Shown: in pieces, positions 17,897 through 54,718 of the stretch
Numbering within the stretch: position 1 is the stretch's first letter
Layout: every line of letters begins with the position of its first letter
Assembly: GCA_002269645.1 (NCBI GenBank)
Contig: NIVC01004149.1
Coordinates: forward strand, 1-57,899
Length of the DNA: 57,899 bases
From: Macrostomum lignano
Taxonomy: Eukaryota
Direction of reading: 5' to 3'
Position numbers and translations under genes: made by a program
Notes under the pieces: generated by a model
Told to the model about the DNA's origin: nothing
Seen by the model: only the letters and a program-made list of their open reading frames with translations
The model's database searches: none

Positions 17897-18297
17897 TAAT
17901 CCACTGACATCCACCCATAGCATATTCGAAACAATAAGAAAATAATCTGCATTCTTCTCGATCAAACAATGAGCGTCATAGACAATTCCAAAGTTTGCGA
18001 TTCGCTCCAACTCAGTGCTCCCATTCGATACACTAAACTCCTTGAACATGTACGCCCAAAAGTTACTGATCAGAGCCACATCCGCATCATGCTTGTCAAC
18101 GTTAGCACGAGCCGCATCCGCACCACCCTTTGTCTTGAATTGAAATGTCATATGGAAGCCGCTCTTAAGACTGTGCACACTAACCAAAGACGAACATCCA
18201 TTGTATGTAAATGTCAGTGTTTGACCAGGACCAAGATTAGTTTCATTCTGATTTTCCTGACTGGGAACTCTTACCTGAGTCGCTTTGATTGTGCTAT
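17897..18297 (-). pseudogene. Polinton relic: TIR-internal fragment fused to a major capsid gene fragment
   Basis: 17897-17959 resembles the TIR interior (~19360-19420, ~28580-28630). 17955-18297 is nearly identical to the MCP segment 21540-21882. The junction shares TTCTC. Confidence 0.9.
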
Positions 18298-18979: not shown

Positions 18980-19758
18980 AGTAGAAGGCATGAGGGGGCT
19001 TCTGGGACAAAATTTTTCACCTCCTCCATAATCCACCTAAATCCATCCATATTATCCCTGACAGAATCAGAAAAAAAGGGGGGTCGCACTCGCTAACAAA
19101 ACGTCCTCCATAATCCACCTAAATCCTTCCATATTATCCCTGACAGAATAAGAAAAAAAAGGGGGGTCGCACCCGCTCACAAAACGTCCTCCATAATCCC
19201 ATTAAATCCATCCATATTATCCCCGAAAGAATCATGAAAAAGGGGAGGGGCCGCACTTGCTCCGAAAACTTTAATCCCATTAAATCCATCCATATTATGA
19301 CTGACAGAATATGGGAATATGGGTCCACTGATACCTGTTATGCTCACTGACACAGACATAATCCACTGACATCCATCCATAGCATCTTCGAAACAATCAG
19401 AAAAAAATATGCATTCTTCTCCCCACATTCAATTCGCAACATGAAACCAGATCCCTAAAACTTTAAACCCCCTAACCCAGGGTCCTTACCCTTTGAAAAA
19501 AAAATTAAATTTTCTCTAAAAATGTTTCCAGTTGTCTCTCCAGGTTCTTATTACAAAGCGCACGAGCCTAATTACAAGAGTAAGTACCGATGCAAACTAG
19601 AATGCAGCGAGTACATGAGAAAATATTGGCCCGACGTTGATATCAATGTCCCTAATATTAATCTAGCTCTCCAAAGACACTGGTTTCATAAGTATGGAGT
19701 AACCTACGTAAAAGATTACGACAGCTACTATAACTTTGCAGAAATCATTAGGCAATTG
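18980..19758 (+). repeat. Left terminal inverted repeat of Polinton A (~780 bp) with internal ~82-bp tandem units
   Basis: Reverse complement of 43432-44183. CCTCCATAATCC recurs at 19023, 19105 and 19188. Confidence 0.88.
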
Positions 19759-19761
19759 TGA
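19522..19761 (+). CDS. Small TIR-embedded ORF (79 aa), function unknown
   Basis: Open in both left TIRs (also 28729-28968) despite nucleotide divergence, and present in the right TIR. It has an A-rich ATG context. Confidence 0.6.
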   Translation: MFPVVSPGSYYKAHEPNYKSKYRCKLECSEYMRKYWPDVDINVPNINLALQRHWFHKYGVTYVKDYDSYYNFAEIIRQL

Positions 19762-19765
19762 TTTC

Positions 19766-20629
19766 TCACATTCTCTCAATGATTAACGTCAATACAAACT
19801 CTTCCCCATTAAAATCAACGCCCATCCCATCTTCAGTCTCAAACTGAAGCACAATCTCGTGAATCTCCTTATTACTCAATACAACTCTTTTCACTGGATT
19901 TGGTTTCTCTACCACCATCTGTCCTCCAGCTACAGAGTTGGAGATGTTGTACAAAATATTAGTTCGCTTTCCCTTAAATACCCAATCAAGACTGAGATTA
20001 GTTCTGATTAGAATATTCAAACCCTTTACAATGTCTGCTATATTGGGTGCTAAGAACAAACCGCGTACACTTTCCCGGGCCATGCTAACGGCCCCCGATG
20101 CTTGAGTGACAGTCCGCGCTGTGGATTCTGCCTTATAAACTTTCTTCACGAATCCCAATTCCCTATACCAAGTGTCATCTTTAAACTCAACCTCCGCATC
20201 TTTGTGAACTTGCATGACCACTCTCATTACAGTGAGATCATAGGTTAGTTTAACAGGGAACAGTTTCTTCTCTGGCTTACTCATATCAGGTGTCTCAAAA
20301 TGGCCTCTTTTAGTAAAGACGTTTTCTAGAAAGTAATTGTAGGTATCCACACTTTGCGTGCTCACAGGGAATACCACAGGTTCTGCTGCTGCACCTTTCC
20401 ATTTGTAATAAAACTTATTATTTGCTGCCGTCACATTGGGAACGTTTGACCAACCAGTGAAGTCGTTAAGATAGACATGGTAATTAGCACCTGGATCCAG
20501 GCTAATCGCCTGCTCTAATTTTTGAACAAATATCCCGTTTGAGTCATTAATCCGCCCAGTTATTGTAATAGGAATGCTCTCCTTGGAGTGCGAAATAATA
20601 TTGTTTAGTCTTTCGGCTATAGCTTCCAT
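19766..20629 (-). CDS. Polinton minor capsid (penton-like, single jelly-roll) protein
   Basis: ~287-aa beta-rich ORF next to the MCP, with a C-terminal ...IVLQFETEDGMGVDFNGEEFVLTLII typical of Polinton minor capsids. The ATG is at 20629 (the track used a non-ATG start). Confidence 0.7.
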   Translation of the reverse strand: MEAIAERLNNIISHSKESIPITITGRINDSNGIFVQKLEQAISLDPGANYHVYLNDFTGWSNVPNVTAANNKFYYKWKGAAAEPVVFPVSTQSVDTYNYFLENVFTKRGHFETPDMSKPEKKLFPVKLTYDLTVMRVVMQVHKDAEVEFKDDTWYRELGFVKKVYKAESTARTVTQASGAVSMARESVRGLFLAPNIADIVKGLNILIRTNLSLDWVFKGKRTNILYNISNSVAGGQMVVEKPNPVKRVVLSNKEIHEIVLQFETEDGMGVDFNGEEFVLTLIIERM

Positions 20630-20654
20630 TTTTTTCACCCACAAAAAAAAATAT

Positions 20655-21940
20655 TTAAACTTTACTGGATGAATTGTTGATCATGTTAAGCTTCACCTTC
20701 CTCTCAAATGCATAGATAATGTACAGGTCCACGGGTGTTGCGACAGTCCTCTCAATGTTAGTCACGATATTCACAGGGCTGTTATCAGTAGGCATTTGTC
20801 TGGCAGACACATCAGCGCCAAACATTGGATATAGAGTTCCATATTGAAGAGCAGTGATAGCAATTCCATTGTTCTCTTTCACAGCCAAGTCGACCAACTC
20901 GCTGTAAAATTTGCTAATCTTGTTCTGACTGAAATCTCCATTTTGTGGCAGTGCAGGGTAAAGATTATCACTGATTTCATGCTGAATGGACCGCACGTCT
21001 CCATGCATGTAGCGTATAATGCTATTTGGGTTTCTCATGTTAATAATAATATACCGTGGATTGCTGCATGATCCCTCTTTAATGCAGATGTTTGTTCTAG
21101 TTTCGTTTCGCTCATCTCGACACATGTAGGCCGTGTATGCAACATCAATGTCCTTCTCTATTGCCTTAAGATAATCCGCTTTTAGTGCAGTCTTTGGCTC
21201 AATGACTTCCAAATACAGCTCGATTCCGGTTAGCTTCACCTCCATCCTTGTGTGATCCGCCCCAGTCCACAACACTCTACTGCGATCATCTCTAGTCATC
21301 CTAAAGGTGTAGCTAAAGTTACTAGTCAGTCGATTAAATGTATTACAGAATCCACTCATGAATCTCAGTGGTACAAATACATCAACAGACCGATACAGCG
21401 GGTTTTTAGCAGCATCATCAGCACCTTGCAATGCATAGTTGTATCTCTTCTTCCTCTTTTTATAGCCACTGTCATTGTGTCTCCTTCTTTTTCATCTGCG
21501 ATAAAACCCGCACCACTTCCCAACTGAATAAAATCAGGATTCTCGATCAAACAATGAGCGTCATAGACAATTCCAAAGTTGGCGATTCGCTCCAACTCAG
21601 TGCTCCCATTCGATACACTAAACTCCTTGAACATGTACGCCCAAAAGTTACTGATCAGAGCCACATCCGCATCATGCTTGTCAACGTTAGCACGAGCCGC
21701 ATCCGCACCACCCTTTGTCTTGAATTGAAATGTCATATGGAAGCCGCTCTTAAGACTGTGCACACTAACCAAAGACGAACATCCATTGTATGTAAATGTC
21801 AGTGTTTGGCCAGGACCAAGATTAGTTTCATTCTGATTTTCCTGACTGGGAACTCTTACCTGAGTCGCTTTGATTGTGCTATCATCACTCAAAATAGGCT
21901 TGTTAATTTTGTAGAAAACTGGTGTCAGTGGGTCGTTCAT
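20655..21940 (-). CDS. Polinton major capsid protein (double jelly-roll), one 1-nt frameshift near 21477
   Basis: The two ORFs join into ~428 aa; copy B is continuous across this site. Beta-rich, with VFVPLRFMSGFC, KLTGIELYL and YPMFGADVS segments. Size and position fit an MCP. Confidence 0.75.
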
Positions 21941-21970
21941 TTTTTAACTAAAAATAAAATAAAATAAGAA

Positions 21971-23184
21971 ATGAAGCGAAAAAGTACACAGCAGATATCT
22001 GAATTGGAGAAGCTAGCACAAGCAGAGAAACGAGTTACCGGGCTAATAAATAAGGAGCAACAATCCTACAATGAGTTTGTCCAAGCAGCCACAGAGTTTC
22101 ATAAGCCCGGGTATGGAGAAGCTAAGAAAAATATTGATCAGGTCAAAGAAACTATCGACGACATACAGGAAACCCAAGTGCAAAAGGTTTTGGGCAAAAT
22201 TCCAGAAGCACCACAGATACAGCCGCAACCACAACAACCACAACCACAACAGCAACTAAAAGTGACAGATAACATTTTTGGACCAGTAGAGCGTGTCGAA
22301 CATGATGGGAAATATGTATTTGGAATAAGTATGTGGAGAAAAAACATTTATAATGAACCAGTGGAATATTATATCGACATAAATAAGGAAAATATTTCTG
22401 TTGTCAAAGGCTAGAAGCTATGAAAATTCCTTTCACAGACGCCTTACTGACTTTTATGACCAAGAACCAAGAGAGAATCTCGGACAAGCAGCTAAAGAAC
22501 TACAGAGATCTAGTGACTTTTGCTCTTGCTAGAGATATAGAAATACTAAAGGCCCCAGAAGTCCTGAGACTTATGTATGATAACGGTGTCAACCTGACTA
22601 AATTCAAAAAGTACAAGCACTTTAAACAATGGTTTGGTTTGCCAGATCAGGGGGAAGTCATTGATCAGATGAAATATCTAGAACAACAGCAACAGCAACC
22701 ACAACAACAACAACGACCGCCACAACAGCAGCAACATTTCACAGAAGAACAAGTACTCAGTCAACTCGAGCAGTTAGACCCTTTGAAAGTAGCTGAATAT
22801 AAGAAACAAAACCCAACAGACTGGCAACGCTTAGAACAACACTCTCCAGATCGAATGAACAGAATCAATCAAAGAGTTTTCACACCTCAACAAAGACAGG
22901 CACCACATGACAGTTCCATCTCTGAAAGTGAGCAGTCTTTTGCATCACCTCCCCAGCAGCTACAAGCCCAACCAACTCCACAACCCCAAGACCAACCGCC
23001 CTCAACTGGAAAAGGAATTTCTGAAATCTACAAGCGAGTAGCGGTTCTTCTAGGAGCGGCAAAGACCGGAATGAAAGATGAAAATAGAAAAGAATTTGTC
23101 AACATCCTCAATAAAATGCTTGAGAGAAAATACATCGATAAGAGGGCGAGAGAGCTTCTGCTTTCGCGGTTCAACAAAAAATAA
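21971..23184 (+). CDS. Gln-rich Polinton protein (~404 aa), split by a 1-nt frameshift near 22410
   Basis: Copy B reads through here (GTCAAAGGTTTAGAAGCT versus GTCAAAGGCTAGAAGCT). The C-terminal helical domain is RVAVLLGAAKTG...EFVNILNKMLERKYI. Confidence 0.7.
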
Positions 23185-23201
23185 ATATCTATTTAAAAAA
23201 G

Positions 23202-23591
23202 ATGCCAATTATTTTCGAAAAAGACATTGACAAATACTATGACAAAGAGGAACTTAATCTTATTAAACGCGGATCTGGACTTTTCCCTGCAGGCCACTAT
23301 CCAAGAAAAGAGCGCTCCGGGAATGGCCTTGCCGATTTGATCGCTCAGGGGGCTAAGATTTTTAAGGTCATTGGAGAGAACAAAGAGAACATCAAGAACG
23401 TTGCCGAAGCGGCTGGCAGTGTAGCCACAGCAGCCAAAAAGATAAAGGATACTGTAACACCTAAACAAGAGATTCAACCTCCACTGGCCCCGCTGGCCCC
23501 GCTGGCCCCAAACCCAGACAGTGTGGACCCTGCAGTCTATGAGAAGATGAGAGCAAGCATTAAAAAAGGAAGTGGTTTCAAATTTGACTGA
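23202..23591 (+). CDS. Small basic/amphipathic putative virion protein with repeated G-x-G motifs
   Basis: 129-aa ORF conserved in copy B, with KRGSGL, RSGNGL and KKGSGF motifs and an amphipathic helix. Confidence 0.6.
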   Translation: MPIIFEKDIDKYYDKEELNLIKRGSGLFPAGHYPRKERSGNGLADLIAQGAKIFKVIGENKENIKNVAEAAGSVATAAKKIKDTVTPKQEIQPPLAPLAPLAPNPDSVDPAVYEKMRASIKKGSGFKFD

Positions 23592-23640
23592 GGGTACTTT
23601 CCGAGGGTACAAGAAATGTAAAGGTACAAGACTAGTCTCA

Positions 23641-23820
23641 AAATGACACATCTAAGTCCCAAAATGACACATCTAAGTCCCAAAATGACACATCTAAGTC
23701 CCAAAATGACACATCTAAGTCCCAAAATAACACATCCAAGTCCCAAAATGACACATCTAAGTCCCAAAATGACACATCTAAGTCCCAAAATGACACATCT
23801 AAGTCCCGAAATGACACATC
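23641..23820. repeat. 21-bp VNTR (AAATGACACATCTAAGTCCCA), about 8 copies
   Basis: Direct tandem repeat; about 4 copies at the matching site in copy B. Confidence 0.95.
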
Positions 23821-23861
23821 TACATTATTTATTATTTAAATTTTTTTTCATCATAGAAAAA

Positions 23862-24662
23862 ATGGACTTTTCAAACGACTTCAATCCTCACTGGACACGT
23901 AATCAGATTAAGTTTTCTCATCATGAGTCAATCCCAAGTCACTTCAGATGCATTGTTGTTGGTTCATCAGGTTCAGGTAAAACATTCAGAGTCTTTAACA
24001 TGCTTCTTAGACCTGGCTTTATCGACTATGACACTCTGCACATCTACTCTCCCACACTGTATCAAGATGAGTATAAAATGCTGATTTCTGGATTGCAAAA
24101 CAAACTGAACAAAGAGGACATTATTCAATGTTTTAATAACCAGCAAATCCTTCCCAGTAACCCTGAAATTGTAGCTGCCGAATATGCAAAGCACCTCAAA
24201 GACAATGAAAAATGGCAGAACATTAAAGTGTTCACCTATGGAGATCCACAGGCTGATCCAAAGACCAAACTTCTACCCCAACCAGATGAGCTAGAAAAGG
24301 GGAGAAAGCATTTGATCGTCTTTGATGATTGTATGACAGGCCCACAGAAGCAGATAGAAAACTATTTTACAAGAGGGCGACATAACAATTGTAATGTAAT
24401 TTACATTGCACAGAACTGGTTCGAGCTCCCGAACAAAACAATTCGTGGGAACTGCAATCTGATTCTCCTGTTTCCAACCATTCCACAGGACAGGTTAAAA
24501 AGATTTTACAATGAGGTCATTGCGCCTGCCTATTTCATAAATCCAACAAAAAACTCAAGCAGAAAGATTTCACAAGAGGAATTCGTTAATCTTTGCTATG
24601 ACAAGTGGAATCAGCCTTACCAGTTTGTGATTATCAGCAAAGAAAAAAGAACTGTAATTTAA
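23862..24662 (+). CDS. A32/FtsK-like genome packaging ATPase
   Basis: Walker A GSSGSGKT, Walker B LIVFDDC, and the FTRGRHNNCNVIYIAQ motif (A32-type R-H and Q). The likely start is ATG 23862 (MDFSNDF). Confidence 0.93.
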   Translation: MDFSNDFNPHWTRNQIKFSHHESIPSHFRCIVVGSSGSGKTFRVFNMLLRPGFIDYDTLHIYSPTLYQDEYKMLISGLQNKLNKEDIIQCFNNQQILPSNPEIVAAEYAKHLKDNEKWQNIKVFTYGDPQADPKTKLLPQPDELEKGRKHLIVFDDCMTGPQKQIENYFTRGRHNNCNVIYIAQNWFELPNKTIRGNCNLILLFPTIPQDRLKRFYNEVIAPAYFINPTKNSSRKISQEEFVNLCYDKWNQPYQFVIISKEKRTVI

Positions 24663-24678
24663 AATTTGCTATTAAAAG

Positions 24679-35722: not shown

Positions 35723-38700
35723 CTAAACCCAATATCCACCTCCTAAACCTAACCTCCAATGCCCGAACGGTAGACTGTTGATATTGTCATCAAAAATGAA
35801 TCTCTTGTTATCTGCACCTGACAGTCCAATCTTCTTTTGCTGAATTGTGTGAATAATATGGTTTTTAGATTGTAGCTTTGAGAACTCATGTGATGTCTTT
35901 TTGTTGCAATTCAAGGCGTCTCTGTATTCAGCTTCATTAATTTCCTTCCTAACACACGTTTCGGAATTCCCTTTGATTTTTTATTGGGTCTGACGACTCA
36001 CATTTTATAAAATAGGACTTTGCTCTCAACCCAATGAATTCAGTGATTATGTCACCAGCAATCTCGTCCTTCATTTTCCCAATCACTTTCTTGTTAGTGG
36101 CGTCAAACACTTGATCGCCATTCTGTGTCCTGAAAGATTCATCATACTCAGACAAGTCAAACAAATCTTTTTGCTGCAGCATGTCCTGATAAATGTCTTC
36201 TGTTTGAATGTCCATAATAAAACTGTCTGTGTCAGTGTACAAGAGTTTCATTTTATCCTTGTACTGCTGCTTCATGCCATAGAAGAACTGGTACATCAGA
36301 CGTTTTGATTCGTCGAGAACAGTGACACCTGTATAGATCGGCTTGCGCAGCGTCACCTTGGTTTTGTAAAATATGATCACACCTAAGTAGCTATTAAAGA
36401 TATGGAGTTCTTTGAATGTTGGCTTTGACATATTTGCCTGAATAACATCAGGCTCTGATGAGGTAACAAGTTTCAGGTTTGTTCTTTTCCGCTCATTCTC
36501 AAGAGTCTTGCCATAGACAGAGTTGTTGGCCAACTTAAAGAGGTTCTTGTCAAAGTCGTTGGTTGCTTTGGTCCTAAACTGGGTGTTCTTATCAATGTAG
36601 GGTTTCATCCACGCTTCCTCTGTAAATGTAAGAGCCCGGTGAACTTGGTGACCCTGCAACCAAGTGAGATAAAATACTGAAGCAGTTTGTAATGGATTTT
36701 GTAACGTGTCTTGTTGTTTAGATTCTGTGTTAGTTTCTCTGTATGTTCTTTTTCTGTTCCTGACAGGTGCCAAGTTCCATTATTATCATTGGGAGTTTCG
36801 ATTATTTTCGGGCACTTGATGTTCTCTGGGAAGGGTGGAAAGTCAGAGAAATAGTCGTGAAGCTCTGGTGGAATGTAAACATCAACCTCATAAATGGCAG
36901 CCAATGAAAAGTCCCGTTTGAATTCTGATGAGGGTAGCCATCGAAAATCTCTAACTGGAAGATCTTGACTCATCGCCCACCCGTAGAGATTATTAGCGTC
37001 CAAGTAAGTAATGTAGTTTGAGGGCTGCTCCTTATTGTAAGATTCAATGTAGGGATTGTTTGCTTTTGCATACTATGTGCAAATTGAGATTCCCCCTCGC
37101 TTTGACGATTCGACAAAATTGTACATGTCAATGTCTGTAAGAAGTTCAATGTACCAATCTGGATCTTGATCCCATTTCATTTTAAGCAAAGATTCCCAGC
37201 TAGTGGCAGGCAGAGACACATAATGTGCTGGATCGAGGCCATATGCTGTGTACCAGGTGATCTGAAGGTTTCAAACACATCGGCCAGCAGAAACACATCT
37301 GTGTAGAGGTAAAGCAGGTGATACTGGAAGAAGTTTTGACAATTAAAGTAATTATAGACATGCTTCGCGTGCTCATAGTCTTTGTCAGAGATTCCAGAGT
37401 CTGTTAGCTTTGAAAAGAACTTCTTGTGGTGGTAAACCTTCTTCAAATACGTGATACCCAGTAATATTTTCATAGGGGTAGAAGCCTTTGGTTCTCAGGA
37501 GTTTAAATGATTCATCAGTGTTGTTAATTTTACTTGCAAACATCTTTGTATATGTACATTGTTCATCTTTTAGATTCTTGCTTAGTTCGTCTAGACTGGC
37601 AGCTAGAAATTGATATGAATCCTTCAGTCTTATTTTACCTTACCCGAATTATCCTGTTTAATATCAACACACTTAAACTTCTCCTTGTTCTCTGCGATGC
37701 AATCAAGGTGTATGTCTGGAATCATGCCGATTTTTTCAACTATTAAATGCATGTCATAGTTCTTTGCGTTGTGACAAAATATCGTTAGATCATGAATGTT
37801 CGATTTTAGCTTTAGATTACAGGTGTTATGCGCTGCACCTCTAAATTTCCCAGTAAGTGGCAGTGGTCCCTAACGGTGGGGTTTTTAATATTAGTGCAAG
37901 TTAAATGTTTCCTGCAGATGTGGCAATGAGTTGCTGATAGGAAATTGCTTTCATCCTCCTCAGTCATCATTATTGGAACAGGTTGAAGGGTGCTAATCAT
38001 TTTTGCAACTCTAACATTCTGGCAATAAACTGCTCCACACACTGCTCTCCAAAGAAATAATTATACTCAACAAGTCCTTTTGTATTAATAAAGGCATATG
38101 CTACTGAATTGGGGACATGTTTTTGAGTTTGAGTTTGTTTTTGAGTTGGAGTTTGTTTTTGAGTTGGAGTTTGTTTTGAGTTTCTGGCACGATTGAGCAT
38201 TCGAAATCAGCATATACAACAAATGGGAGCTTCTCCATCTTGTGATAGTTCTTAAACCGGAGATACTTCTCTTCAGCTGAAGGAAGAGAGCAGTTTGTCG
38301 GGTGATCCTCGCATGATAATTCATGCTCTGCTAGTTTTTCAAAGCGTTCAGGTCCACTGTAATGCTTAAGGCACAAGCGGCAGATGGCAACAGCCTCGTG
38401 ATGATTATTCAACTGCTTGTGAATGAGTCTTGAAAGATCTTTAATCCAAACATAGTGAGCCTCCTCTAGTAAATTACCAATCACTAGAAGATCCACTTCA
38501 GTCCGCCTTTTCCCCTCGGATCTAAAACGTCTTTGCTACATCTGACCGGTTGAACTTTCTCAGTTTTTCACTCCACTCAAAGACTGTGATTCTAATTTTG
38601 TTATTAAACACTTCTTCTAGCTTTGGGATCTGAGAGATCGCCAAGCCTCCTTTGTCAAACCTGATTCCCTTCTTTTCGCATTCATGAGATAGTAGTTGAA

Positions 38701-39588
38701 ATAATTTTGATAATTTGAGGTTCTTTCGGGGTGGTGAGGGACACTAAAAAGTGCAGAAAGAACTGCCCATAGAGCACAGCAATTGTCTTTATTTTTAACA
38801 TTTATGCAAGCTTTTTTACCGGCTAGCTTATGCGGGAGCTCTATATAAGAGGAGGCTTTAAGTGGGTCATATTTCATGACCATGACAGTCGCTCTTTGAA
38901 TCCCTCCCACGACCCATCCGGAACCTCTGGATGTAAACGCTTCAATTTTCTTATTGACATCTTGAAGGAAAGGATCCAGTGTGTCTGTTGGGGTGAATGG
39001 CTTTGCCTTTGTTGTCATGTAATACTCGAGATGCTCAGTGGGTTTTGCAGGCATATAAAACGCAATCTTGAATGATATCTGTAGTTTAAAGGTCTTGCGT
39101 GTTTTGAGTGTGTGATCAACAACTGATTGGATGCTGTCTTTATAGTCGTAGATGTTTGCGGTGGTACCGTTGGTGCCGTTAATTGGGATTGTGTACTCTA
39201 TGTAATGTTCTGTAAACTTCCTCTGTGCAAAATTAATCTCTTCAGTGGCAAGCTCCGACTCTTTTAAATGGATTAATTGCTCTAATTTCTCTTGTTCCTG
39301 CTTATTTTGTGGGTACTTTGCTTTTTCACCAGTGAGAGTTTCATATTTGTTAACTAAGTTGCGACTCCTCTCTTGGTGTTCCTTTGCAGAATTTTTTATA
39401 GGCGCATACTGGTTTGATTCTAATTGATTGATGATTTCCAACTGTTTTTCATAGCTTCCCAGGTGACCAGGGTCGGTGTTGAACTTTTGTTTGCATGCTT
39501 CTCTTAGTGAATTACTTTTGTCTTGAAATGAGACGCCTTTTGAAAAATATTTGTTGACTAAATCTCTTGCTGGATTAGCTTTTGGCAT
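35723..39588 (-). CDS. Full-length protein-primed DNA polymerase B, broken by multiple 1-nt indels
   Basis: N-terminal GSGWVVGGI...YDPLKASSYIELP...INVKNKDNCCALW, HYVWIKDLSRL, CRLCL zinc motif, VYADFE exonuclease I, endonuclease VII-like CHIC...RDHCH, and polymerase motifs DANNLYG, NSVYGK, YTDTDS. Confidence 0.93.
38120..38185. repeat. 18-bp in-frame tandem repeat inside polB (TQKQTP x3-4)
   Basis: GTTTTTGAGTTGGAGTTT units. Confidence 0.85.
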
Positions 39589-39709
39589 TTTTCTCGAAAA
39601 TATAAAAAAATTTTGAGGGTGACCACCCTGATAGAAAAGTTGAACTGTTTCTACATCCTATAAGTAGTTTAGGTTTATGAAGCTGGATAAAGTGGGGTTT
39701 TAAACCTCA

Positions 39710-40155
39710 TCACATCCGCATTATTGTAAACCCAGCATTGTGCAGTGTCATGATGGCTTTGACAATGTCAGACTTGCTTACAGAATTTTCATGCTCACAA
39801 TCATCACGATCGGGGCAGCCCTCTCCTGCCTTAATTGTTATACCTTTGTCTCTTGCAATCTTTTGCAATTCCAGCTGGTGGGCTCTATCATTCCCAGCTT
39901 TAACAGCAGTTGCTACACCTCCAGCTACACCACCTGCGGCACTTACAGCGCCTGCAATGATCGGAATAAGAGCTGCTAATGGTAGGATTCCTCCTGACTT
40001 TTCATCTGTGATGCTGTGTCTTTGTCATTACACTGAACTATTTGCTGCGTGGGATCGATTTTTACTTTGACACCTTTAATTGATATAATACCTGGTTTCT
40101 TTGATTCAATGATTTTATTGAGTTTATTGATGGTTCTGGTTTCAATCTTTGTCAT
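39710..40155 (-). CDS. Adenovirus protein X (mu precursor)-like core protein, one frameshift near 40020
   Basis: Manual translation: MTKIETRTINKLNKII...(fs)...TDEKSGG|ILPLAALIPIIAGAVSAAGGVAGGVATAVKAGND..., like the pX C-terminal MRGG|ILPLLIPLIAAAIGA. Absent from the supplied track in this frame. Confidence 0.65.
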
Positions 40156-40171
40156 TTTTTATTTTAATATT

Positions 40172-41198
40172 TTAATTAATTTCTGTGTCAGCTGGTATCA
40201 CTAGGAGTTCAGCTCTAGTGAATGACCGCGTGGGGGATTTAGGGTTAAAGGCCTGAGATAAAAAGTAATAGTCACCGGAGTCGGAGGTAAAATGTCTGTC
40301 TATTTTATGTACATCAAGGCTGAAGTATGGATCTGTAGCTCTTCTTTTGGTGTCTTTCTCTAGCTCTCCAGGTAGATATAAAAAGCGTAGAAACTCAGAG
40401 TTTGTCAGTATGTATGGTGATTCAACTCCTGGAAGCTTAGGGTAGTTCGAGGTGTGTTTTGTGTTGTGTGTGTTGTGTGGGGTTGTCGTGTTGTTGTCTG
40501 TTCTATGAGATGCCTTAAGTTCGACAGTGTCTTGTTTAATTGCATGGGATGGTTTCAATCCAGTCATGCGTGTGACTTCATTGTTCAGTTGCTCTATAAC
40601 AGTGGGGAGTCTCTGTCCACTTGGTATAGTACTGCCACTCAGTTTCAGTCTTGCGCTGTCTGCTTAGTGAATAGCCTCTTGGCTAGAGTTAGATTGAATC
40701 TTTCCACAAAAGCCTGGTCTCTGTGCAAGTTTGTTCTGCCATAGCGAATCTCTGTGTTTTTCTTTTCCATAAGGGATTTCACTACACCCATGAATTCCTT
40801 ACCCGGGTCGGTCATAAAGATTTGGGGTATGTGAGCGGAGAGTTTTTATAAATATCTTGCAGTGCGCTGGCAACAACCTCTGACTTCTTCGTCTTGAGTG
40901 GGCGAGCTTCCTTATATCTGGAAGCAATGTCAATAATTGTAAGAGCATACTTGTAGCCTGAGTCGTTGGGGAGAAACAAAAGATCTGCTTGGTGCGCTTC
41001 ATTAGGTTTATAAATACTGAAATGGGCCTTTCAAATTTTACTGGTGGGAAATAGACTTGAAAGACAGCCTGCTTAGAGAGCCATTTTTCTACTGTAGCTT
41101 TTGGCTCTTACTCAGCTCCATGAGTTTACTAACGCATTTTTGCCTACAAAGAATCCTTTGTCGCTGTAGTAGAGTTTTTTAAGTTTCTGATCTGTCAT
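40172..41198 (-). CDS. Retroviral-like (rve, DDE) integrase, frameshifted
   Basis: Manual translation: KLYYSDKG...HQADLLFLPNDSGYKYALTIIDIASRYKEARPL...TDPGKEF...HRDQAFVERFNLTL, plus a C-terminal RSFTRAELLVIP. Confidence 0.9.
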
Positions 41199-41227
41199 TT
41201 ATTTAAAAAGAAAATTTAAATAAAATA

Positions 41228-41676
41228 ATGCAGCGCTCTGGTGGTAAAATAGATTCACATGGACTGATAGAAAAGCTTCCTCATCCAAACAAAGGCTGGA
41301 CACTTCCCGGCTATAAATATTGCGGGCCTTTGAATCCACTTGAAATACAGTTAGATAAAAACAATAATCCAAATCCTGGGCATGAGCCTGTGAATGAGCT
41401 AGACTCTGTCTGCATGTGGCATGACGTTAAATATAGAGATTTTCCTGAGGAGAAGAATCGCTGGGACAAAGAAATGCTTAGGAGACTAGACAATATAGGG
41501 GCTTCAAGCGGTGGAAGGAATCGATCGCTCGGAAGCTAGTTAAAGCTGTTATTTTTAGTAAGGCAAAGTTGGGATTGGGAATGGACGTCGAGGGTGGGGT
41601 GGGTTTTGCATTGCACGCGCCAAGCAAAGAATTAGGAAGACTGCTGAAAGAGCTGGGGGTTGAGAGAGCAGAATGA
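41228..41676 (+). CDS. Parvovirus-type phospholipase A2 domain protein (PLA2X-like), frameshifted near 41500
   Basis: WTLPGYKYCGP Ca-binding loop and PVNELDSVCMWHDVKY with the catalytic HD dyad. It continues ...KAKLGLGMDVEGGVGF...ERAE* in another frame. Confidence 0.85.
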
Positions 41677-41955
41677 TTCAAGTGGCTCTAGCGGTTGGAA
41701 AGAAAGCTTGTAAAGGGCGGCTATATTTTCCTTATGACATTTTGCCGTGTGGTGGGGGTGTTGAGCGGAACGGATATGGCAGCTGTTTATTGTCAACCAT
41801 TATCCTATACTCAATGTGCCGCAGATACTGCAGTATTCAATGTGAAAAGTATTCAATGTGAAAAGCAGCAGATACTGCAGTATTCAGTGTGAAAAGTTTT
41901 TTATGTGAAAAAGCAAGAGTCATAGCAGCAAGAATCATTAGTCACAGCAGATTAG

Positions 41956-42591
41956 TTAACCCAGGAGTGCACTGGCCTCTTCTTCTTCTAGCATCTTCAA
42001 TGCCTCATCGGCATACTTAATTATTGAGCGCAGTCGATACAGCGAGATGCCACAACGATTTAGAATAGGGCGAGTGTTGCTGAGTCTTGCCACCCGGATT
42101 AAGAAATTCCCCCAAACCGGCTTAAATCGAAGCTTCATGGCAAACGCTCTATATTCCTCAGCAGACAGTACGAGCTTCATGCGGATCAGAATTTTTCCAG
42201 CCTTTATTCCGTATTGAAGTCCTTGATTTTGTAGTTCATTTATCATTTTTTCAATTTTGTTGAGCTCATTCACAACTTCTGCAATGTCGTGCCTCCCAGA
42301 GACAAATTCCACAGCCGGTTGTGGAATGACACGAGCAAGTGAATCACGGAGTAAGTTCGCAGCCTCATTGATGTGCTCCAACTTCTTTCGTTCGTCAATT
42401 CCTTCCACCCTACCAGTGATAGATGGTAGATTAATCACACACTTATTGAATCGCCTCGCAACTTTGTTAAATTCCTCAATCCAATACTTCGATTGCTTCA
42501 TGTCATCACTCTCGCACATCCTCCTTACTAAAGCAACCAAATCATCCTCAAATGTAGGCATTGCTATGTCCATTGAAATTCTAAAACACAT
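41956..42591 (-). CDS. Hypothetical helical Polinton protein (~205-211 aa)
   Basis: Intact ORF inside element B, convergent with the PLA2 gene. No motif recognised with certainty. Confidence 0.6.
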   Translation of the reverse strand: MCFRISMDIAMPTFEDDLVALVRRMCESDDMKQSKYWIEEFNKVARRFNKCVINLPSITGRVEGIDERKKLEHINEAANLLRDSLARVIPQPAVEFVSGRHDIAEVVNELNKIEKMINELQNQGLQYGIKAGKILIRMKLVLSAEEYRAFAMKLRFKPVWGNFLIRVARLSNTRPILNRCGISLYRLRSIIKYADEALKMLEEEEASALLG

Positions 42592-43272
42592 TGTAGGTGA
42601 AGTAAATGAAAAAAAAGCAGAACTAGTATAAGCAAATATATTAATAATTATTACCTTGCAGATTTAAAAAATATTTAGCGCGTATATGGATACTGAATCG
42701 GGAATCAGTAGTTCTTTAGTAGGTAGAGCTCTGCTCAATACTAAGCTCTACTCTAAGATATGGCTCTAAGAATTTTTCTCAGTGCATTATACAATAGATA
42801 CAGTAGCTTCCGCGCGATCGACACTGACACGGTAACGTTGTTATCCCTGGGCGGCAAATGTGGCAGCAGCTGGTGGAACCGGTTAAAGACACAATACGCT
42901 CTCGTATACCCAGTAAGTATAAATCTATATTAACCCTGGAAGAACTCTGCCCTATACGATTTGCTGTACACGAAATGAGCGGGAGGAAAATCTATAGTTT
43001 ACAACTCCAAGTCCAAGAGGCAAGGCCGTTCTAGCTTCTATTGTGCTACAATTGAGGCACTGGCAAGCAAGAGAGGGAGAGAGGGACGGGACGGAAGCCA
43101 TGGACGGGACGGGGCTGCTAGAGTCTGGCAAGCGGGCAGAATTATAGGGCTATTGCCATATACAATTTGCTGTACACAAAATGAGCGGGAGGAAAATCAA
43201 TATTCTTCTGGATCCGAATAATATCGATTTTGGATTGTGCGAGGATCTACAATATCTTGTTCTTCCTCTACC

Positions 43273-43667
43273 CTATTCATTTCCAACCGTGCAACTAGCT
43301 CGCACGTCGCGGAGGAAATTCTCGGGCGGATAGCCCTGCACACTCAGTGTCTGCTCTTTCCTCCTTATTTCCTCCTGTTTTATGTAAATATACTTGTGAA
43401 TAAATGAACTTAGTATGTTTTTAGTAAACTTCAACTGCCTAATGATTTCTACAAAGTTATAGTAGCTATCGTAATCTTTTACGTAGGTTACTCCATACTT
43501 ATGAAACCAATGTCTTTGGAGAGCTTGATTAATATTAGGGACGATGATATCAACGCCGGGCCAATATTTTCTCATGTACTCGCTGCATTCCTTCTTGCAT
43601 CGGTACTTACTCTTGTAATTAGGCTCGTGCGCTTTGTAATAAGAACCGGAGAGACAACTGGAAACAT
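43273..43667 (-). CDS. Right-TIR copy of the small ORF, extended past the TIR boundary (frameshifted near its start)
   Basis: ATG TTT CCA at 43667. It shares MRKYWP...EIIRQL, then continues ~52 aa into unique sequence. Confidence 0.5.
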
Positions 43668-44183
43668 TTTTAGAGAAAATTTAATTTTTTTTTTCAAAGG
43701 GTAAGGACCCTGGGTTAGGGGATTCAAAGTCTTTGGGATGCGTAGCGAATTGCGAATTGAATGTGTGGAGAAGAATACAGATTGTTTTCTGATTGTTTCG
43801 AAGATGCTATGGGTGGATGTCAGTGGATTATGTAGGACACCTGCTATGCTCTGATTCTGTCGTGGAGGAAGGAGGATAGGTTAGGAGGATTATGTTCGAA
43901 GTTTTGTAAGCGAGTGCGACACCTGTTATGCTCTGATTCAGGGATAATATGGATGGATTTAATGGGATTATGTTCGAAGTTTTCGGAGCAACTAGGACAC
44001 CTGTTATGCTCTGATTCTGTCAGGGATAATATGGATGGATTTAATGGGATTATGGAGGATGTTTTGTGAGCGAGTGCGACCCCCCTTTTTTTCTGATTCT
44101 GTCGGGGATAATATGGATGGATTTAGGTGGATTATGGAGGAGGTGAAAAATTTTGTCCCAGAAGCCCCCTCATGCCTTCTACT
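43432..44183 (-). repeat. Right TIR of the Polinton locus (~750 bp)
   Basis: Ends GAAGCCCCCTCATGCCTTCTACT, the inverse of the termini at 18980 and 28280. Confidence 0.9.
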
Positions 44184-44329
44184 AGCTTATGCTGTATAGA
44201 GAGAAATGGAGACTTTTTTTAAGAAAATTTTTCGTTTGATTTCAATGGAGCCTTAAAAAAGTGGAATTCCCTCAGTCCTCCGGTTTTTTACCATAGACAC
44301 CTTGTTTAAGAGCTGCCACGACTCATGGC

Positions 44330-45749
44330 CACGAAGTGGCACCGATTTGAATTCAATTAGATTTCTTAGATTTCATTTCCCATCGATCAAAGACAAGTGG
44401 CAAGTGGAAAAAATCATAAAAGTGCTAATTTCCACTTGATAGCGATGTCACTGGCAGAAAGAAAGAAAGCCAGCTGTCCAAGCGTTATTTGAAGCATGAT
44501 GCGGTGCCAACTATCTTTCCTAATGCACCAAATTACCTACTACTGTCCAGCAGGCAGCTCAGAGCACATGCACTGCGACATAATCTGCTCGTCTGAAGGC
44601 TGAAAACATGCGTCTCGATGATCAGATTGCTAACTTTCTTTACTATTGATTCAATTCTAATTGCTCGTTCAGAGAAATTCAAGAACTGCTCGATTCAGAG
44701 GAAGCGAGACCAGGGTGGCTTTCCCACTGCAATATGCAACGAGTTCCTGTGCATCTTCATGCTGGAAGTGAATTGCATGTCTGCCAGGTTGCGTGCTCCA
44801 TCTGCATTGGACCCGATCGCAACGTACGGATCTCCTTTGGTTTAAAAGGCGCGGCACTGTTTGCAAGACACGGTGATAGAATTGCTTGGCACAGATAGAA
44901 ACATTTCTGAGCAGTTGAGCAGTAAGCCAAAGAGCTCCAGGAGATCCTTTCGAAAGCTGATGGTCTTGTGCTACATGATCTATTCAGTAAGTGCTGCAGC
45001 CTACGGACTTCTACGTGAACAATCTCGGCTGCCATCAGAGAGAACTCTGCTATCAATCACTCGGAGAATTGAAAAGGATGGATTAGATTATCAGAGTTAA
45101 CTTCGGTTGCGAGCGTCCAACAAGTCGACACAGATGGAGCGAGTTGTGATGCTAATCATTGATAAGATCTATGGGGCCAATCGAATTGAGAATTGAGCTC
45201 CGACTGCACGGTTATTTACTATACAAGCGGAGCAGTCGCTAGGAAGTTCGTGCAAAGAAAGCGAGGATGCGGATCTTCCCGCGACCTTCTGCTTGGCTCT
45301 GACGATCTGCCGCCCCTTCATGAGGTGGGATTGGTGGTGGGACTGACTGATGGTGGGATTGAGGCCACAGCCATTGCCTTCTTGGAGGAGATCAACCGCG
45401 GTGGCCTGTCCAAGCCGTCTGATATCGCTTTTGGGCTGGCCAGACACGTTGGCAGGTGTTCTAGGAGATCTGGCAGAGCGATGAACTGCGCAGACGGCTG
45501 CTGCATTCTCCCAATCAGATGCAGCTGTTCTGTCACTTTATTGACGAGATGATGGATGAAAACTACTATCTGGAACATTTCATGGGTCAGACGATGTGCA
45601 TGGAGTGTCATGATGCGAAAGAAGGACTCGTCTGTGCATTTTTCAACTTTATGATGAAAAATCTTGTCAAAGACATTTCGGTTGGTGGAGCTGGGGCTCG
45701 AAATAAGCGAATGTCGGCTAAACTTTCTAGTGCTAGCTCAAATAAGTAA
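44330..45749 (+). pseudogene. Decayed, internally deleted P-element/THAP9-like transposase
   Basis: THAP end LKHDAVPTIFPNAPNYL (44489), SAAAYGLLREQSRLPSERTL, VMLIIDKIY, then C-terminal YYTSGAVARK...INRGGLSKPS. The catalytic core is missing and there are many stops. Boundaries are approximate. Confidence 0.75.
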
Positions 45750-47289
45750 CTTCGATTTGTGTCAATGACAAAGTAACTTCTGTCTGAGATCCCAACTGCT
45801 CCGACAAATCTAACCTGCTCGCTTCCGTTTTGTGTACACTCCTTTGCCTGCTCTACATGTGCGTTATCATTTTATACTCGTTTTTTGTTTTAATTTGAAT
45901 TCTTTGAATAAAAACACTAGCCAAAAAATATTCCGTCGCTTCATTTTTGAGTTTGACAGATTCCGCAGAAAACAGAGAAAAAAGTCATAAAAATCAATAA
46001 GAAAAACTGGCCTCATGAGACAACGGGTATTTCTTCGCTTCCACTCCAGATGCTAATTATAGAACTCCTTGCCTGAGAAAATCGTCCGAGGGCTTTCAAC
46101 CATAAAACGATTTTCTTATCGCGTGTGAAAAAAATTTACCCCAGTAAACTGATACATCTTTTCATTGAGGGTTTTAACCACAGACAAAATGTCAGCGATG
46201 AGAGACCTATCCGACTTGGTATAACCAGCAGATAGTCCAGGCCAGATCGGAGTGGTTACCAGCAGAGTAAACAGGGAACAGTCTAAAGTTGATGTAGTAT
46301 TTCAAAATGCCTGGGCAGACAGAGTGTAATTTAGCCTATCAATATTGTGATGGGTTTCGGCCTTTTCGGCTCCTTTGTGGAAGCCTTCGGACCTCAGGTC
46401 TCTTAAATGAATCCATTAGAATCCTGGCCCTCCACTCCTGTCAGATGGTCAGCCCCACGGTAGCTTGATCTGTGGCGAGCAGTCTAGGTCCTATAGCTAA
46501 GAGAGGGACAGCGAGAGACAAGCAGGGAGAATTTTAAAGGTAGAGATTAGCCAGTCCGCAGATTAACTAAGCCGCTGCCACCAGCCCGTGCGTTCTGGCT
46601 CACCAAACCGGAACTTTCGAAATCGGGCTTCCGACTAGAGGGGGCTTAGCACTTACCTGCCAACTATTGTCTTTTTGCTGTCAATCTCGAAGTCATAGCC
46701 GATGATAAGGGACACTGCTGGGACTAGATCGCATTGGCCATGCAGGTATAGAGGGGACTTGTGCAGGGCATTCTTGCAGTGGCGAGACTATGGGGTAGCT
46801 ACATGTACTATTACATTGCTAAATACGAGGAATTGTACTTTTGGCCTTCAACGCACCAACCAGCCTCTCGTAGCGCTGATGATAGACTAACTCGAACTTC
46901 AGAGACCGCATGATTCATTTACCCGAGCCGCTTGGCGAACCTAGAGTGCACAAAGTACATCTCTGGCGCCGATTTTGCACTATTGGCAATTTTCTAACTG
47001 GTTTGATAGATTGATCGACTGAGAACTGCCTTGCCATTGGTCCACTGTGACTGGCGCCTACTAGCTTAGCTACTCATCTGAGCCATCGGCGAACAAAGAA
47101 ATAAAACTGATAAAAATAACTGTCAGATTTAACCTTCTCACTAAATCCCTTCACACTTCAGATTGAATTGGAGTATCAGACTACTATTAGTATTATTATT
47201 AAGTGATTTCTGCCTCAATAACAGCACCGCTGAACAAAATGAGTAAAAGCGTCGCCTAATCCAGCTACTGAAATAGGGGACAGATAAGG

Positions 47290-50545: not shown

Positions 50546-51338
50546 ACCGAAGTCAGTACCAATCTTCCTGCCGTGCGCACGAGACATCGTGCTGTTCTCT
50601 ATCGTATACCGGTAAAGTGTCTCCATTCTTGAATCGAATCGGGACAAAGTGCTTCTCAAACTGAATGAAACATTTTGTCTGAACGCAGCTATCTATGGCC
50701 TGAACTAGATTTAGCTCTGGTTAAGAAAGGAGTGGCGGATTTAGCCCCCGTCCCCTTTGTTGTTGGCGATGATAGCGCCCCTTTTCTTTTGCCTTTCCAG
50801 TCCTATTTTTTCAGCAGTCGCATATCGGTAAATTCCTCATCCCCTCTGCTTACAAAACCGACAGCTGAGGAACCGCTGCCGCAGACTGAAAGTTAATTTT
50901 TTCTTGAATTGAAAAATTTGCTTTTGCTTTTCTACAAATGAAACAGGTTTTCAAGTAGTTCTTTCCGTTGGTTCATACAGGTCTTCATTCATCTTGCTTC
51001 GGCAGAGTTTTTGTTTAACCTGCTTGCGGTGTTTCCAGTGTATTAATAAAATGCCTTTTAAATTTTCGTATGAGTTCGTAATTTAGATTCTAAAAGGCTG
51101 TGTCTGCTGGCCTGTAAAAGTGCTCAGCTATAATTTTTGCCGAACTGCCATGGATTTTGCATCCCCTTAATAATCGAATTCTATCGTATACAGCTCCGCT
51201 AGCCAATCAGAAGCCTAAAACTTGTCTCCACTGCTCCATATCCCTTGGTATTTAGTTAGGCAGAAAGCTTGCCTCAGGAAACGGCTCACGAATTCGAACG
51301 GTCTATCATTAAGCAGTAAGTCTAGAGTACCCGTAGTT

Positions 51339-52538
51339 ATGCAGCGATGCTTTGAATTACTGTTTCTGGCCTTGGCTCTAACGCTGAAGCCGTCAGACTG
51401 CCTGGATCCGTCAACCAACACTGACGGACCCGTCTGCAGAGCCCTGGCTCAAAGCGTCGGCCCGAAGTATCTGGCCCAGTGCCGGTCTATGCAGCCACCC
51501 AGTCTCAGTGGTTACAACACCACCGTACATGTGAACATCGATGTGAAGACAGTCTACGGACTAGGCGATGAAGAACTGCTAGAATGGTCCGGCTGGGTAC
51601 TGATGTCGTGGCGCGATCCAAGACTAGCCTGGAACGCTACTGAGACTGGCGTGACTCAGATGCGACTTGACAGGAATAGCCTGTGGATACCCGACATCGG
51701 CTATTGGAACGCTAAATCGGTCGAGTTTTTCGATTTGCGCAACTCGAAATTCCTCGAAACAATCGCGTCTCCGGATGGTTCCGTATTTACTTACATTTAC
51801 ACAGTGACCCAGTTTCCTTGCTCTCTGGATATGCGTTTATTTCCATTTGATCGACAGGTGTGCACACTACAAATCGGATCTATTAACTCGCCATCCAGCG
51901 TTTTCAGCTTTACTCTGACCAGCAGAATGAGTGCCAGTACGTCTGATAGCAGCGCTTTCTTTAGCGTAGGCGAATGGGACTTGGTCGGACTCACCCACAG
52001 CGTCAAGTACATGGTTGTAGCTAACAGCTCCACGTTCCAGTTTGTCAATTTGCGATTCTTTCTGCAACGTCGCGTGACGTATTACGCAATCCTGATGATT
52101 GTGCCGTACGAACTGTTGTCGCTACTGGCTAGTATCATGTTCTTCGCTGAGCAGCAGGGCGACCGAGCTAACGTGTCAATCGCCATCATCATGTCTATGA
52201 CGCTGTACGTCCTCATCGCCTCTCAATCCGCGCCCAAGTCGATGAACATCATTCCTCTGGTTGGAACATTCCTAATCACCCAGATGCTTATACTGATCTT
52301 CTTCACCTTTGTTGCAGTTTTCCGTTTTCCTCAAGTGGCAGCTCATCGCACGCAGTCTGAGTCCGCTGAGAAACGACGGTCGATAATTGCCCGACGCTTG
52401 GCCGTTTTTCTATCCTTTTTAGTGCGACACAAAGACAAAATCTGCTTTGCTAGCTATTTGGGCGCCAGCGCGTTCAATGCGCTTTTCTTTCTGTGCATCT
52501 GGCCTGCGGCTTCTCGCGATGCTGACTGGATTAAATAA
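51339..52538 (+). CDS. Intronless Cys-loop ligand-gated ion channel subunit, nicotinic-receptor-like, non-alpha type
   Basis: Signal peptide from ATG 51339, WRDPRLAW, LWIPDI, Cys-loop C-x13-C (CSLDMRLFPFDRQVC), GEWDL, RRVTYY and four hydrophobic TM segments. Confidence 0.92.
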   Translation: MQRCFELLFLALALTLKPSDCLDPSTNTDGPVCRALAQSVGPKYLAQCRSMQPPSLSGYNTTVHVNIDVKTVYGLGDEELLEWSGWVLMSWRDPRLAWNATETGVTQMRLDRNSLWIPDIGYWNAKSVEFFDLRNSKFLETIASPDGSVFTYIYTVTQFPCSLDMRLFPFDRQVCTLQIGSINSPSSVFSFTLTSRMSASTSDSSAFFSVGEWDLVGLTHSVKYMVVANSSTFQFVNLRFFLQRRVTYYAILMIVPYELLSLLASIMFFAEQQGDRANVSIAIIMSMTLYVLIASQSAPKSMNIIPLVGTFLITQMLILIFFTFVAVFRFPQVAAHRTQSESAEKRRSIIARRLAVFLSFLVRHKDKICFASYLGASAFNALFFLCIWPAASRDADWIK

Positions 52539-53754: not shown

Positions 53755-53835
53755 CAAAAAAGCGTGCAGATAATGAAAAAAGCGTGCAGATAATGAAAAA
53801 AGCGTGCAGATAATGAAAAAGCGTGCAGATAATAG
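53755..53835. repeat. 20-bp tandem repeat AAAAAGCGTGCAGATAATGA x4
   Basis: Direct reading; one similar copy near 54550. Confidence 0.9.
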
Positions 53836-53929
53836 CTTACAGCGCCACAAAAAACAGCAGTTTGCAAGCAACGTTTATTAAAACAAAGGGGAAAAACACA
53901 GCAGAATTTAACAAAGAAAAGACGCCCAC

Positions 53930-54707: not shown

Positions 54708-54718
54708 TCGAAAGCCTA

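What the first reader, a model, noticed from the sequence alone, without database searches (positions are those of the whole stretch)
43432..44183. The right TIR pairs with the outer left end (A), not with the adjacent element B
The right TIR shares A-specific sequence (ORF segment KAHEPNYKSKYRC; CCCCTAACCCAGGGTCC; AAATTTTCTCTAAAAATG), while B has TQPNPLYKSKYQC and AATTATCAGCGCAGGG. This is predicted if B inserted into A and recombination then removed B's right end, making the right half a B/A chimera. The match to A is still imperfect, and the flanks (CTCTGG / TGTGTA / AGCTTA) give no 6-bp TSD, so more rearrangement or inter-variant TIR shuffling occurred.
Basis: partly seen in the sequence, partly recalled or inferred. 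Interest (0 to 1): 0.7.

Follow-up and report, generated by a model that had tools for sequence, protein, structure and literature searches.

The report
Mismatched ends of nested Polinton copies
A virus-like jumping element in an animal genome has ends that do not match, most likely because pieces of different copies of a large family were joined, by the assembly software or by ordinary recombination; this is an ordinary situation, not a new mechanism.

Summary
The motifs and the missing target-site duplication are real, but the right TIR (R, 43432-44183) does not pair with A. The locus is a Polinton/Maverick: a left 9.3-kb piece A (18980-28279, cut in pPolB) and a 15.9-kb element starting at B (28280). 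R equals A only over 127 bp (43595-43721). Across the repeat array R is the odd one out (48 private sites; 8 shared with A, 13 with B), and A and B share array architecture. Inside, B is the outlier. Without gaps A-B is the closest pair (92.7%; A-R 89.7%, B-R 90.3%). Contigs of four public runs show a family of roughly dozens of copies, many TIR variants, a rare module beside R, and in one run R's flank without the element. Best reading (0.75): R is the end of a third, young insertion (C), joined to B inside the shared body, by assembly mis-join (about 0.42) or ectopic recombination (about 0.33). The window looks like an error-prone long-read consensus. New member of a known kind; low interest.

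The parts
18980..28279 (.). Copy A: left 9.3 kb of a Polinton/Maverick, cut inside pPolB at B's tip
   Evidence: self-BLAST 19101-25227 and 25729-28279 against 28319-37252; junction printed
18980..19758 (+). Left TIR of A (tip, four array units, TIR ORF)
19522..19761 (+). 79-codon ORF inside A's TIR; its stop lies at the inner TIR border; no family hit
   Evidence: Pfam none; no homologue; two weak short hits
26744..28279 (-). 3' part of A's pPolB, open for 511 codons
   Evidence: 42-46% identity over 96-99% of the query in the best 120 hits; 63 of 120 carry PF03175
28280..44183 (.). 15.9-kb element: B left end, shared body, rare right module, R; inferred B/C composite
28280..28965 (+). Left TIR of B (three array units, same architecture as A)
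28677..28991 (+). B's divergent patch: the reason R looks A-like; runs 26 bp past the TIR border
29859..30953 (-). Double jelly-roll major capsid protein
   Evidence: PF21738 E 4e-5, below the curated cut-off
32824..33755 (+). A32-like packaging ATPase, in two frames
   Evidence: PF04665 E 0.003, below cut-off; ORFs
35288..35692 (-). Adenain-like C5 protease
   Evidence: PF00770 E 1.6e-4, above cut-off
35720..38620 (-). pPolB of the B/C element, about ten frame switches (approximate bounds)
   Evidence: three-frame translation read by eye; 98.8% to A over A 26401-28279
39710..40024 (-). Adenovirus pX-like ORF
   Evidence: PF05829 E 2.6e-7
40645..41107 (-). rve integrase, in several frames
   Evidence: PF00665 E 7e-6 on 40812-41030, below cut-off
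41207..41539 (+). Parvovirus-type phospholipase A2-like ORF
   Evidence: PF08398 E 5.5e-13
41650..43431 (.). Rare right accessory module (left bound approximate), with ORF 41956-42663 (-) of no family
   Evidence: single-contig depth 7-23 times below the body in X11 and X5, 2.2-2.9 times the flank in X1, X2, X5
43432..44183 (-). Right TIR R, a third TIR variant
43273..43667 (-). R's copy of the TIR ORF: broken near codon 7 in the window, and without the stop of the left copies, so the frame runs on into the module
   Evidence: contigs of all four runs differ from the window by one letter at 43647
43595..43721 (-). 127-bp block where R equals A except for two one-letter gaps
43722..44068 (-). 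R-private repeat array (units R2-R4)
44069..44183 (-). TIR tip, 115 bp, one difference to both A and B
44184..44189 (+). AGCTTA: expected right copy of C's target duplication; no TIR tip in the window follows this hexamer
   Evidence: X5 record 30
17897..18297 (+). Deleted fragment of another copy: inner TIR piece (17897-17959; 4 differences to R, 5 to A) fused at TTCTC to a capsid-gene piece (99.4% to A 21540-21882)

Best explanation
Three integrations and one join. (1) Copy A of a high-copy Polinton family integrated next to a subtelomere-like region. (2) Copy B integrated into A's pPolB gene in the same orientation; the junction is shown, the order is inferred. (3) A third copy C integrated at another host site, ending in R with AGCTTA as the right copy of its target duplication (inferred from a contig with the flank and no element). 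(4) B's left part and C's right part were joined somewhere in the near-identical body, between about 28990 and 41650, which drops B's right end, A's right half and C's left end, and leaves no matching duplication and no matching TIR. The join was made either by the assembler walking through a 16-kb repeat of many copies (about 0.42) or in the animal by ectopic homologous recombination (about 0.33); the sequence alone cannot tell them apart. R resembles A over its inner 290 bp because the TIRs of this family are patchworks and B carries the divergent patch there, not because R is A's partner.
For: R is a third variant. A-R ORF divergence far exceeds the A-B core rate. No duplication for any pair. 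X5 record 30 (854 nt, depth 20.3) lies on 44183-44600 only from its letter 274, with 0 substitutions and 1 gap: the flank goes on into other sequence. Capsid-gene contig depth is about 55 times that flank contig in X5 (1113.8 against 20.3), so there are many candidate partners. Further TIR variants stand in the runs: joints 28378>28692 and 28529>43833 (opposite strands) in 3 of 4 runs, 28430>28539 and 43830>43960 in 2 of 4 (15 of 106 joints shown). A fourth TIR patchwork lies at 17897-17959. A against B is itself blockwise: 99.6, 95.2, 54, 95.4, 98.8%. For the assembly route: 16 of 17 short A/B indels sit in homopolymers, 14 are missing letters in B, and all 12 indels shown of 163 are one letter that the window lacks; reading this as long-read consensus error is recalled knowledge. 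For the in-vivo route: ectopic recombination between Polinton copies is proposed for C. elegans (10.1101/2024.01.15.575659, passages).
Against: No C left end was seen: no genome is held and the 273 letters of X5 record 30 were not shown; that contig could be a paralogous flank. Neither the A|B junction nor R's two junctions were among the rows shown (32 piece rows shown, 28166 not). That the two TIRs of one fresh copy are identical in this family was not tested; it rests on recalled adenovirus panhandle replication and on a perfectly flanked C. elegans copy. The crossover was not located. Contig depth is no true copy number. A and B share the window's letter at 19 of 22 shown variant sites where contigs read otherwise, so they are closer kin than two random copies, which this model does not explain by itself.
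Confidence: 0.75

Rival explanations
1. One reading: B inserted into A, recombination between B and A's right half removed B's right end, R is A's own right TIR, and further rearrangement erased the duplication.
For: R equals A over 127 bp and sides with A at 41 of 42 two-way sites inside 19469; with gaps A-R is the closest pair, 83.1%; the geometry (nested, same orientation) invites this deletion.
Against: It predicts A's duplication intact: CTCTGG against AGCTTA, 2 of 6. It predicts near-identical A and R: 89 differences in the array, 12 in the last 163 bp. It needs two extra events. R's flank exists without the element in X5.
Confidence: 0.08
2. 28280-44183 is one genuine element with unequal TIRs (a recombinant genome integrated before its ends were made alike, or a family that keeps only the outer 115 bp alike), whose two ends were joined to two different targets in an aberrant integration.
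For: All tips are alike over 115 bp. B's left flank and R's flank share 10 of 11 letters, 4 bp out of register (11 of 5000 random pairs do so). Contigs join a B-like array to an R-like inner part in 3 of 4 runs.
Against: The A-type inner block occurs in a left TIR (A) and a right TIR (R), so left and right ends do exchange inner sequence. The 10/11 match was found after the fact, is out of register and fits no duplication. It needs two rare events at once.
Confidence: 0.12
3. A is a partial tandem duplicate of the B element (or A and B were homogenised locally), not an older copy that B invaded; later patch exchanges with other copies made them differ.
For: 99.6% identity over 3.7 kb; A=B at 19 of 22 shown sites where contigs differ.
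Against: Different TIR patch and unit number, an unalignable 500-bp gene part, and a break exactly at B's tip, as integration gives. It does not explain R or the missing duplication.
Confidence: 0.05

Closest known systems
Polinton/Maverick elements (PMC8097293: passages and section 7 seen)
   Same: pPolB, rve integrase, double jelly-roll capsid, ATPase, protease; 15.9 kb (their intact range 12.7-24.6 kb); TIR 690-780 bp (their range 46-1447); accessory region between core and TIR.
   Different: No 6-bp duplication, TIRs alike only at the tip, frames broken in the window: not 'intact' by their definition. Tip reads AGTAGA, not (AGT)2. Invertebrate-type host context, nested.
Alpha adintoviruses (PMC8502044: passages seen)
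   Same: PolB nearest to PF03175-bearing proteins, adenain, integrase, PLA2 and pX domains.
   Different: PLA2 and pX lie on separate ORFs on opposite strands here, not as a PLA2X fusion; OTU domain and penton not tested.
Polinton-driven rearrangements at C. elegans eri-6/7 (10.1101/2024.01.15.575659: passages seen)
   Same: Several Polinton copies at one locus, partial remnants, ectopic recombination proposed.
   Different: There an inversion of host exons with an effect on a gene; here a direct-orientation join with no host gene shown to be affected, and assembly error not excluded.
Endogenous mavirus-like elements, EMALEs (PMC8547959: passages seen)
   Same: Module exchange between related elements; strain-specific insertions; apparent pseudogenes that resequencing did not confirm.
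   Different: Protist virophages; their truncated copies were flanked by TIRs.

Membership tests
Polinton/Maverick | [quoted passage not shown] | tested here: met
   best 120 hits E below 2e-120, 63 of 120 carry PF03175; the ORF piece itself had no Pfam hit
Polinton/Maverick | Retroviral-type (rve) integrase | tested here: met
   PF00665 E 7e-6 on a 72-residue piece, below the curated cut-off
Polinton/Maverick | Double jelly-roll major capsid protein | tested here: met
   PF21738 E 4e-5, below cut-off
Polinton/Maverick | Packaging ATPase and C5 protease | tested here: met
   PF04665 E 0.003 (weak), PF00770 E 1.6e-4 above cut-off
Polinton/Maverick | Minor capsid protein | tested here: inconclusive
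   candidate ORFs 29257-29865 and 28973-29338 had no Pfam hit; no fold was predicted
Polinton/Maverick | Terminal inverted repeats of hundreds of bases beginning with AG | tested here: met
   imperfect inside the tip
Intact Maverick insertion (PMC8097293 definition) | 6-bp target-site duplication | tested here: not met
   A/R 2 of 6, B/R 3 of 6; so filed as family sequence, not as an intact insertion
Intact Maverick insertion (PMC8097293 definition) | Unbroken core ORFs | tested here: inconclusive
   broken in the window, but the breaks look like consensus error
Alpha adintovirus | PF03175-class PolB with N-terminal OTU domain | tested here: inconclusive
   neighbours carry PF03175; ORF 38617-39657 upstream had no Pfam hit; OTU not tested by profile comparison
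Alpha adintovirus | PLA2 gene with C-terminal pX domain (PLA2X) | tested here: not met
   PLA2 at 41207-41539 (+) and pX at 39710-40024 (-) are separate; not filed as Alpha adintovirus
B/A intra-locus recombinant (solo-LTR-like deletion) | Outer target duplication preserved | tested here: not met
B/A intra-locus recombinant (solo-LTR-like deletion) | Outer TIRs near-identical | tested here: not met
Assembly mis-join across a long repeat | No single molecule spans the joined form | not testable with these tools
   only short-read contigs were offered

The most novel reading that the evidence does not exclude
In this Polinton family only the outer 115 bp of the TIR is kept alike, while the repeat array, the block before the ORF and the TIR-borne 79-codon gene reassort freely, so single genomes integrate with unequal ends; the TIR gene gives a short product from the left end and a longer one, with a module-specific tail, from the right end.
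Probability: 0.12. Interest if true: 0.55.

Novelty: new member of a known kind. Interest (0 to 1): 0.24.

Why it matters
If the best reading holds, it matters little: one more rearranged or mis-assembled Polinton, and a caution that TIR motifs cannot pair ends in a family of many recombining copies. What is useful is the setting: a young family with many copies, a polymorphic insertion, swappable accessory modules and patchwork TIRs would let one test whether Polinton ends are made alike during replication, as recalled for adenoviruses; my searches listed no paper that tests this. If the novel case held, it would argue against panhandle-type copying of whole TIRs.

Tried and rejected
No whole genome is held, so C's left end and A's right half could not be sought. 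The TIR tip had 0 matches in viral contigs and metagenome contigs. No RNA holder listed; X11's kind is a guess, so nothing is said on expression. The TIR ORF: no Pfam family, no candidate (lengths 43-139 only), two hits at E 6e-4 and 1e-3 over 20-27 residues (not followed), Atlas RNase T2 at 0.90 with low recognition: rejected as weak. Module ORF: only hypothetical clusters. AGCTTA at 17834 as the left duplication: rejected, no TIR tip follows and by eye it lies inside a degenerate host repeat unit. The frame break in B's pPolB close to 37253, the place where A is cut, as a scar: rejected, it is one of about ten switches in 2.9 kb and X11 contigs end loose at 37260 as at other one-letter differences. 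The row at 28725 as a count of A-type TIRs: rejected, it cannot tell variant from consensus error; the depth-800 contig at 43647 in X5 only suggests that the A/R-type inner block is common, since that place is shared by all three TIRs. Earlier findings: none by place or sequence. Papers on ITR sequence conversion: 0 hits; PMC9863843 gave only reference-list lines, so panhandle copying stays recalled. PMC12220804: passages seen, nested insertions there are retrotransposons. No supplements were read; TIR mismatch tables in those of PMC12220804 and PMC8097293 may bear on how common unequal TIRs are.

Full report
Setting. The window opens with 16.7 kb of a 22-bp satellite (728 of 755 units identical), degenerate repeats and a short TTAGGG run. 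An intronless ligand-gated ion channel ORF and a DDE transposase lie to the right, and the named pPolB relatives are from sponges, cnidarians and a mollusc: the host is inferred to be an invertebrate animal. No genome is held.

Anatomy. Self-comparison shows a direct duplication, 18980-28279 (A) against 28280-37252, after which the second copy runs on to 44183. Three TIR tips exist. The 15.9-kb element carries a double jelly-roll capsid gene, A32-like ATPase, C5 protease, pX, PLA2, rve integrase and pPolB: a Polinton/Maverick. A ends inside pPolB exactly at B's first base, where B's own pPolB continues, as an integration of B into an A-like copy would give. A and B are a patchwork: 99.6% over A 19790-23500, 95.2%, then about 500 bp that do not align, 95.4%, 98.8%.

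The three TIRs. But the relation changes along the TIR. Tip, 115 bp: A=B, R one difference. Array: A-B 29 differences, B-R 59, A-R 89; A and B share unit types (99, 89, 82%), R's last two units match none above 78% and 57%. Next 127 bp: R equals A apart from two one-letter gaps, B differs at 34. Last 163 bp: A-B 9, A-R 12, B-R 19. Of 122 informative sites, outside A 19470 there are 8 R=A, 13 R=B, 48 R-private; inside 41, 1 and 11; the change point at 19468/19469 was reached by 0 of 2000 permutations. So R is the outlier in the array and B is the outlier inside; A is simply the central sequence. Whole-TIR identity without gaps is A-B 92.7, B-R 90.3, A-R 89.7%; with gaps A-R 83.1, A-B 78.4, B-R 77.9%. 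Twelve A-R substitutions in 236 ORF bases cannot come from decay at the A-B core rate of 15 in 3701 (p 5e-10). A fourth TIR piece at 17897-17959 is again a different mix.

Target duplication. None for 4-8 bp in either pair. No TIR tip follows any of the 8 AGCTTA hexamers. B's left flank and R's flank share 10 of 11 letters out of register (11 of 5000 random pairs; found after the fact; unexplained, probably chance).

Independent data. Twenty of 24 listed runs, from 7 studies, hold part of the stretch. I laid contigs of four of them, from four studies, on 28150-44600 (only the best-supported rows are shown, e.g. 40 of 791 variant rows, 15 of 106 joints). (a) In X5 a capsid-gene contig has depth 1113.8 and the flank contig 20.3, a ratio of about 55; depth is only a rough guide. 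(b) The 1.8 kb inside R drops sharply in all four runs, to 2.2-2.9 times the flank in X1, X2, X5: a rare accessory module. Accessory regions beside the core are known (PMC8097293 section 7). The TIR bins themselves are deep, so R-like TIR sequence is not tied to this module. (c) Several more TIR variants appear as joints, one linking a B-like array to an R-like inner part in 3 of 4 runs. (d) X5 record 30 matches 44183-44600 with no substitution but its first 273 letters lie elsewhere: R's site unoccupied, or a paralogous flank. If unoccupied, R's insertion is young and its left end should follow AGCTTA, which neither A nor B does. (e) All 12 indels shown of 163 are single letters that the window lacks, among them the break in R's ORF. 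(f) Against my reading: none of the window's junctions was among the rows shown, so they are neither confirmed nor refuted; and at 19 of the 22 shown variant sites in the stretch shared with A, A has B's letter, 2 have the contigs' letter, 1 is a gap, so A and B are closer kin than random copies.

Sequence quality. Of 17 one- or two-letter A/B indels outside the unalignable part, 16 are in homopolymers and 14 are missing in B, against only 15 substitutions in 3.7 kb of core. B's pPolB has about ten frame switches (by eye), while flank ORFs of 439 and 417 codons are open. This pattern is typical of an error-prone long-read consensus (recalled). It does not prove a mis-join, but a nested repeat of more than 30 kb in a family of many copies is where such assemblies go wrong.

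Mechanism. Shown: A|B junction in the window, three distinct TIRs, no duplication, many family variants, a flank contig without the element. Inferred: R belongs to a third insertion C, and B's left part was joined to C's right part within the shared body. The assumption that a fresh copy has identical TIRs is recalled from adenovirus replication and not tested for this family.

Comparison. It is a Polinton/Maverick by gene content, not an intact insertion by the definition in PMC8097293 (passages). It resembles Alpha adintoviruses but lacks the PLA2X fusion described in PMC8502044 (passages), so I do not file it there. Ectopic recombination among clustered Polintons is proposed in 10.1101/2024.01.15.575659 (passages); module exchange and unconfirmed pseudogenes in PMC8547959 (passages). 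Searches listed no report of a Polinton nested in a Polinton with unequal TIRs, but the library lacks most subscription papers.

Side feature. Each TIR holds a 79-codon ORF. A against B: 11 synonymous and 8 changed codons, 7 and 2 over codons 24-79, which suggests a working gene. The left copies stop at the inner TIR border; the right copy has no stop there and runs about 50 codons into the module. It has no convincing relative.

Verdict. Observation partly confirmed, interpretation partly supported. New member of a known kind; interest 0.24.

Noticed in passing
window 1-16690: 22-bp satellite, 728 of 755 units identical; irregular units cluster in the first 2 kb, as at a contig end.
   Followed up: partly
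window 16700-17896: Degenerate 400-480-bp host repeat units (68% alike) around a short TTAGGG run at about 17600-17670: subtelomere-like.
   Followed up: no
window 17837-18979: A 196-codon frame (-) fuses about 43 unknown codons to a capsid-gene piece; upstream 18298-18979 is unique in the window and looks like a promoter with an intron (by eye). Possibly a captured capsid fragment or a deleted copy that A invaded.
   Followed up: partly
window 19522-19761, 28729-28968, 43273-43667: TIR-borne ORFan, mostly synonymous change over codons 24-79, variable codons 10-23; left copies stop at the TIR border, the right copy reads on.
   Followed up: partly
window 25228-25728 against 34324-34688: A and B carry unalignable sequence here: a replaced gene part ahead of a small hydrophobic ORF (240 against 154 codons).
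   Followed up: no
window 23613-23836 and 32815-32933: 21-bp tandem repeat with different unit numbers in A and B.
   Followed up: no
window 28269-28279 and 44188-44198: 10-of-11 match between B's left flank and R's flank, 4 bp out of register; 11 of 5000 random pairs reach it. Unexplained.
   Followed up: partly
window 42948-42996 and 43154-43202: 49-bp direct repeat (92%) in the rare module, upstream of an apparently spliced ORF at 41956-42663.
   Followed up: no
window 44198-44248: AT-rich flank stretch 75% like R 43650-43700 (E 4e-4, low complexity); probably chance.
   Followed up: no
window 30602 to 41599: Contigs of X1 and X5 join these places: an internally deleted family member lacking 11 kb.
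   Followed up: no
window 44293-45750: Decayed THAP/P-like transposon by eye (motif recalled, no call tested it).
   Followed up: no
window 51219-52538: Intronless ligand-gated ion channel ORF (PF02931, PF02932).
   Followed up: no
window 53563-56794: Nested inverted repeats (86 bp and 147 bp) around a QRICH1-like ORF (53721-54464) and a DDE_3 transposase (55103-56356).
   Followed up: no
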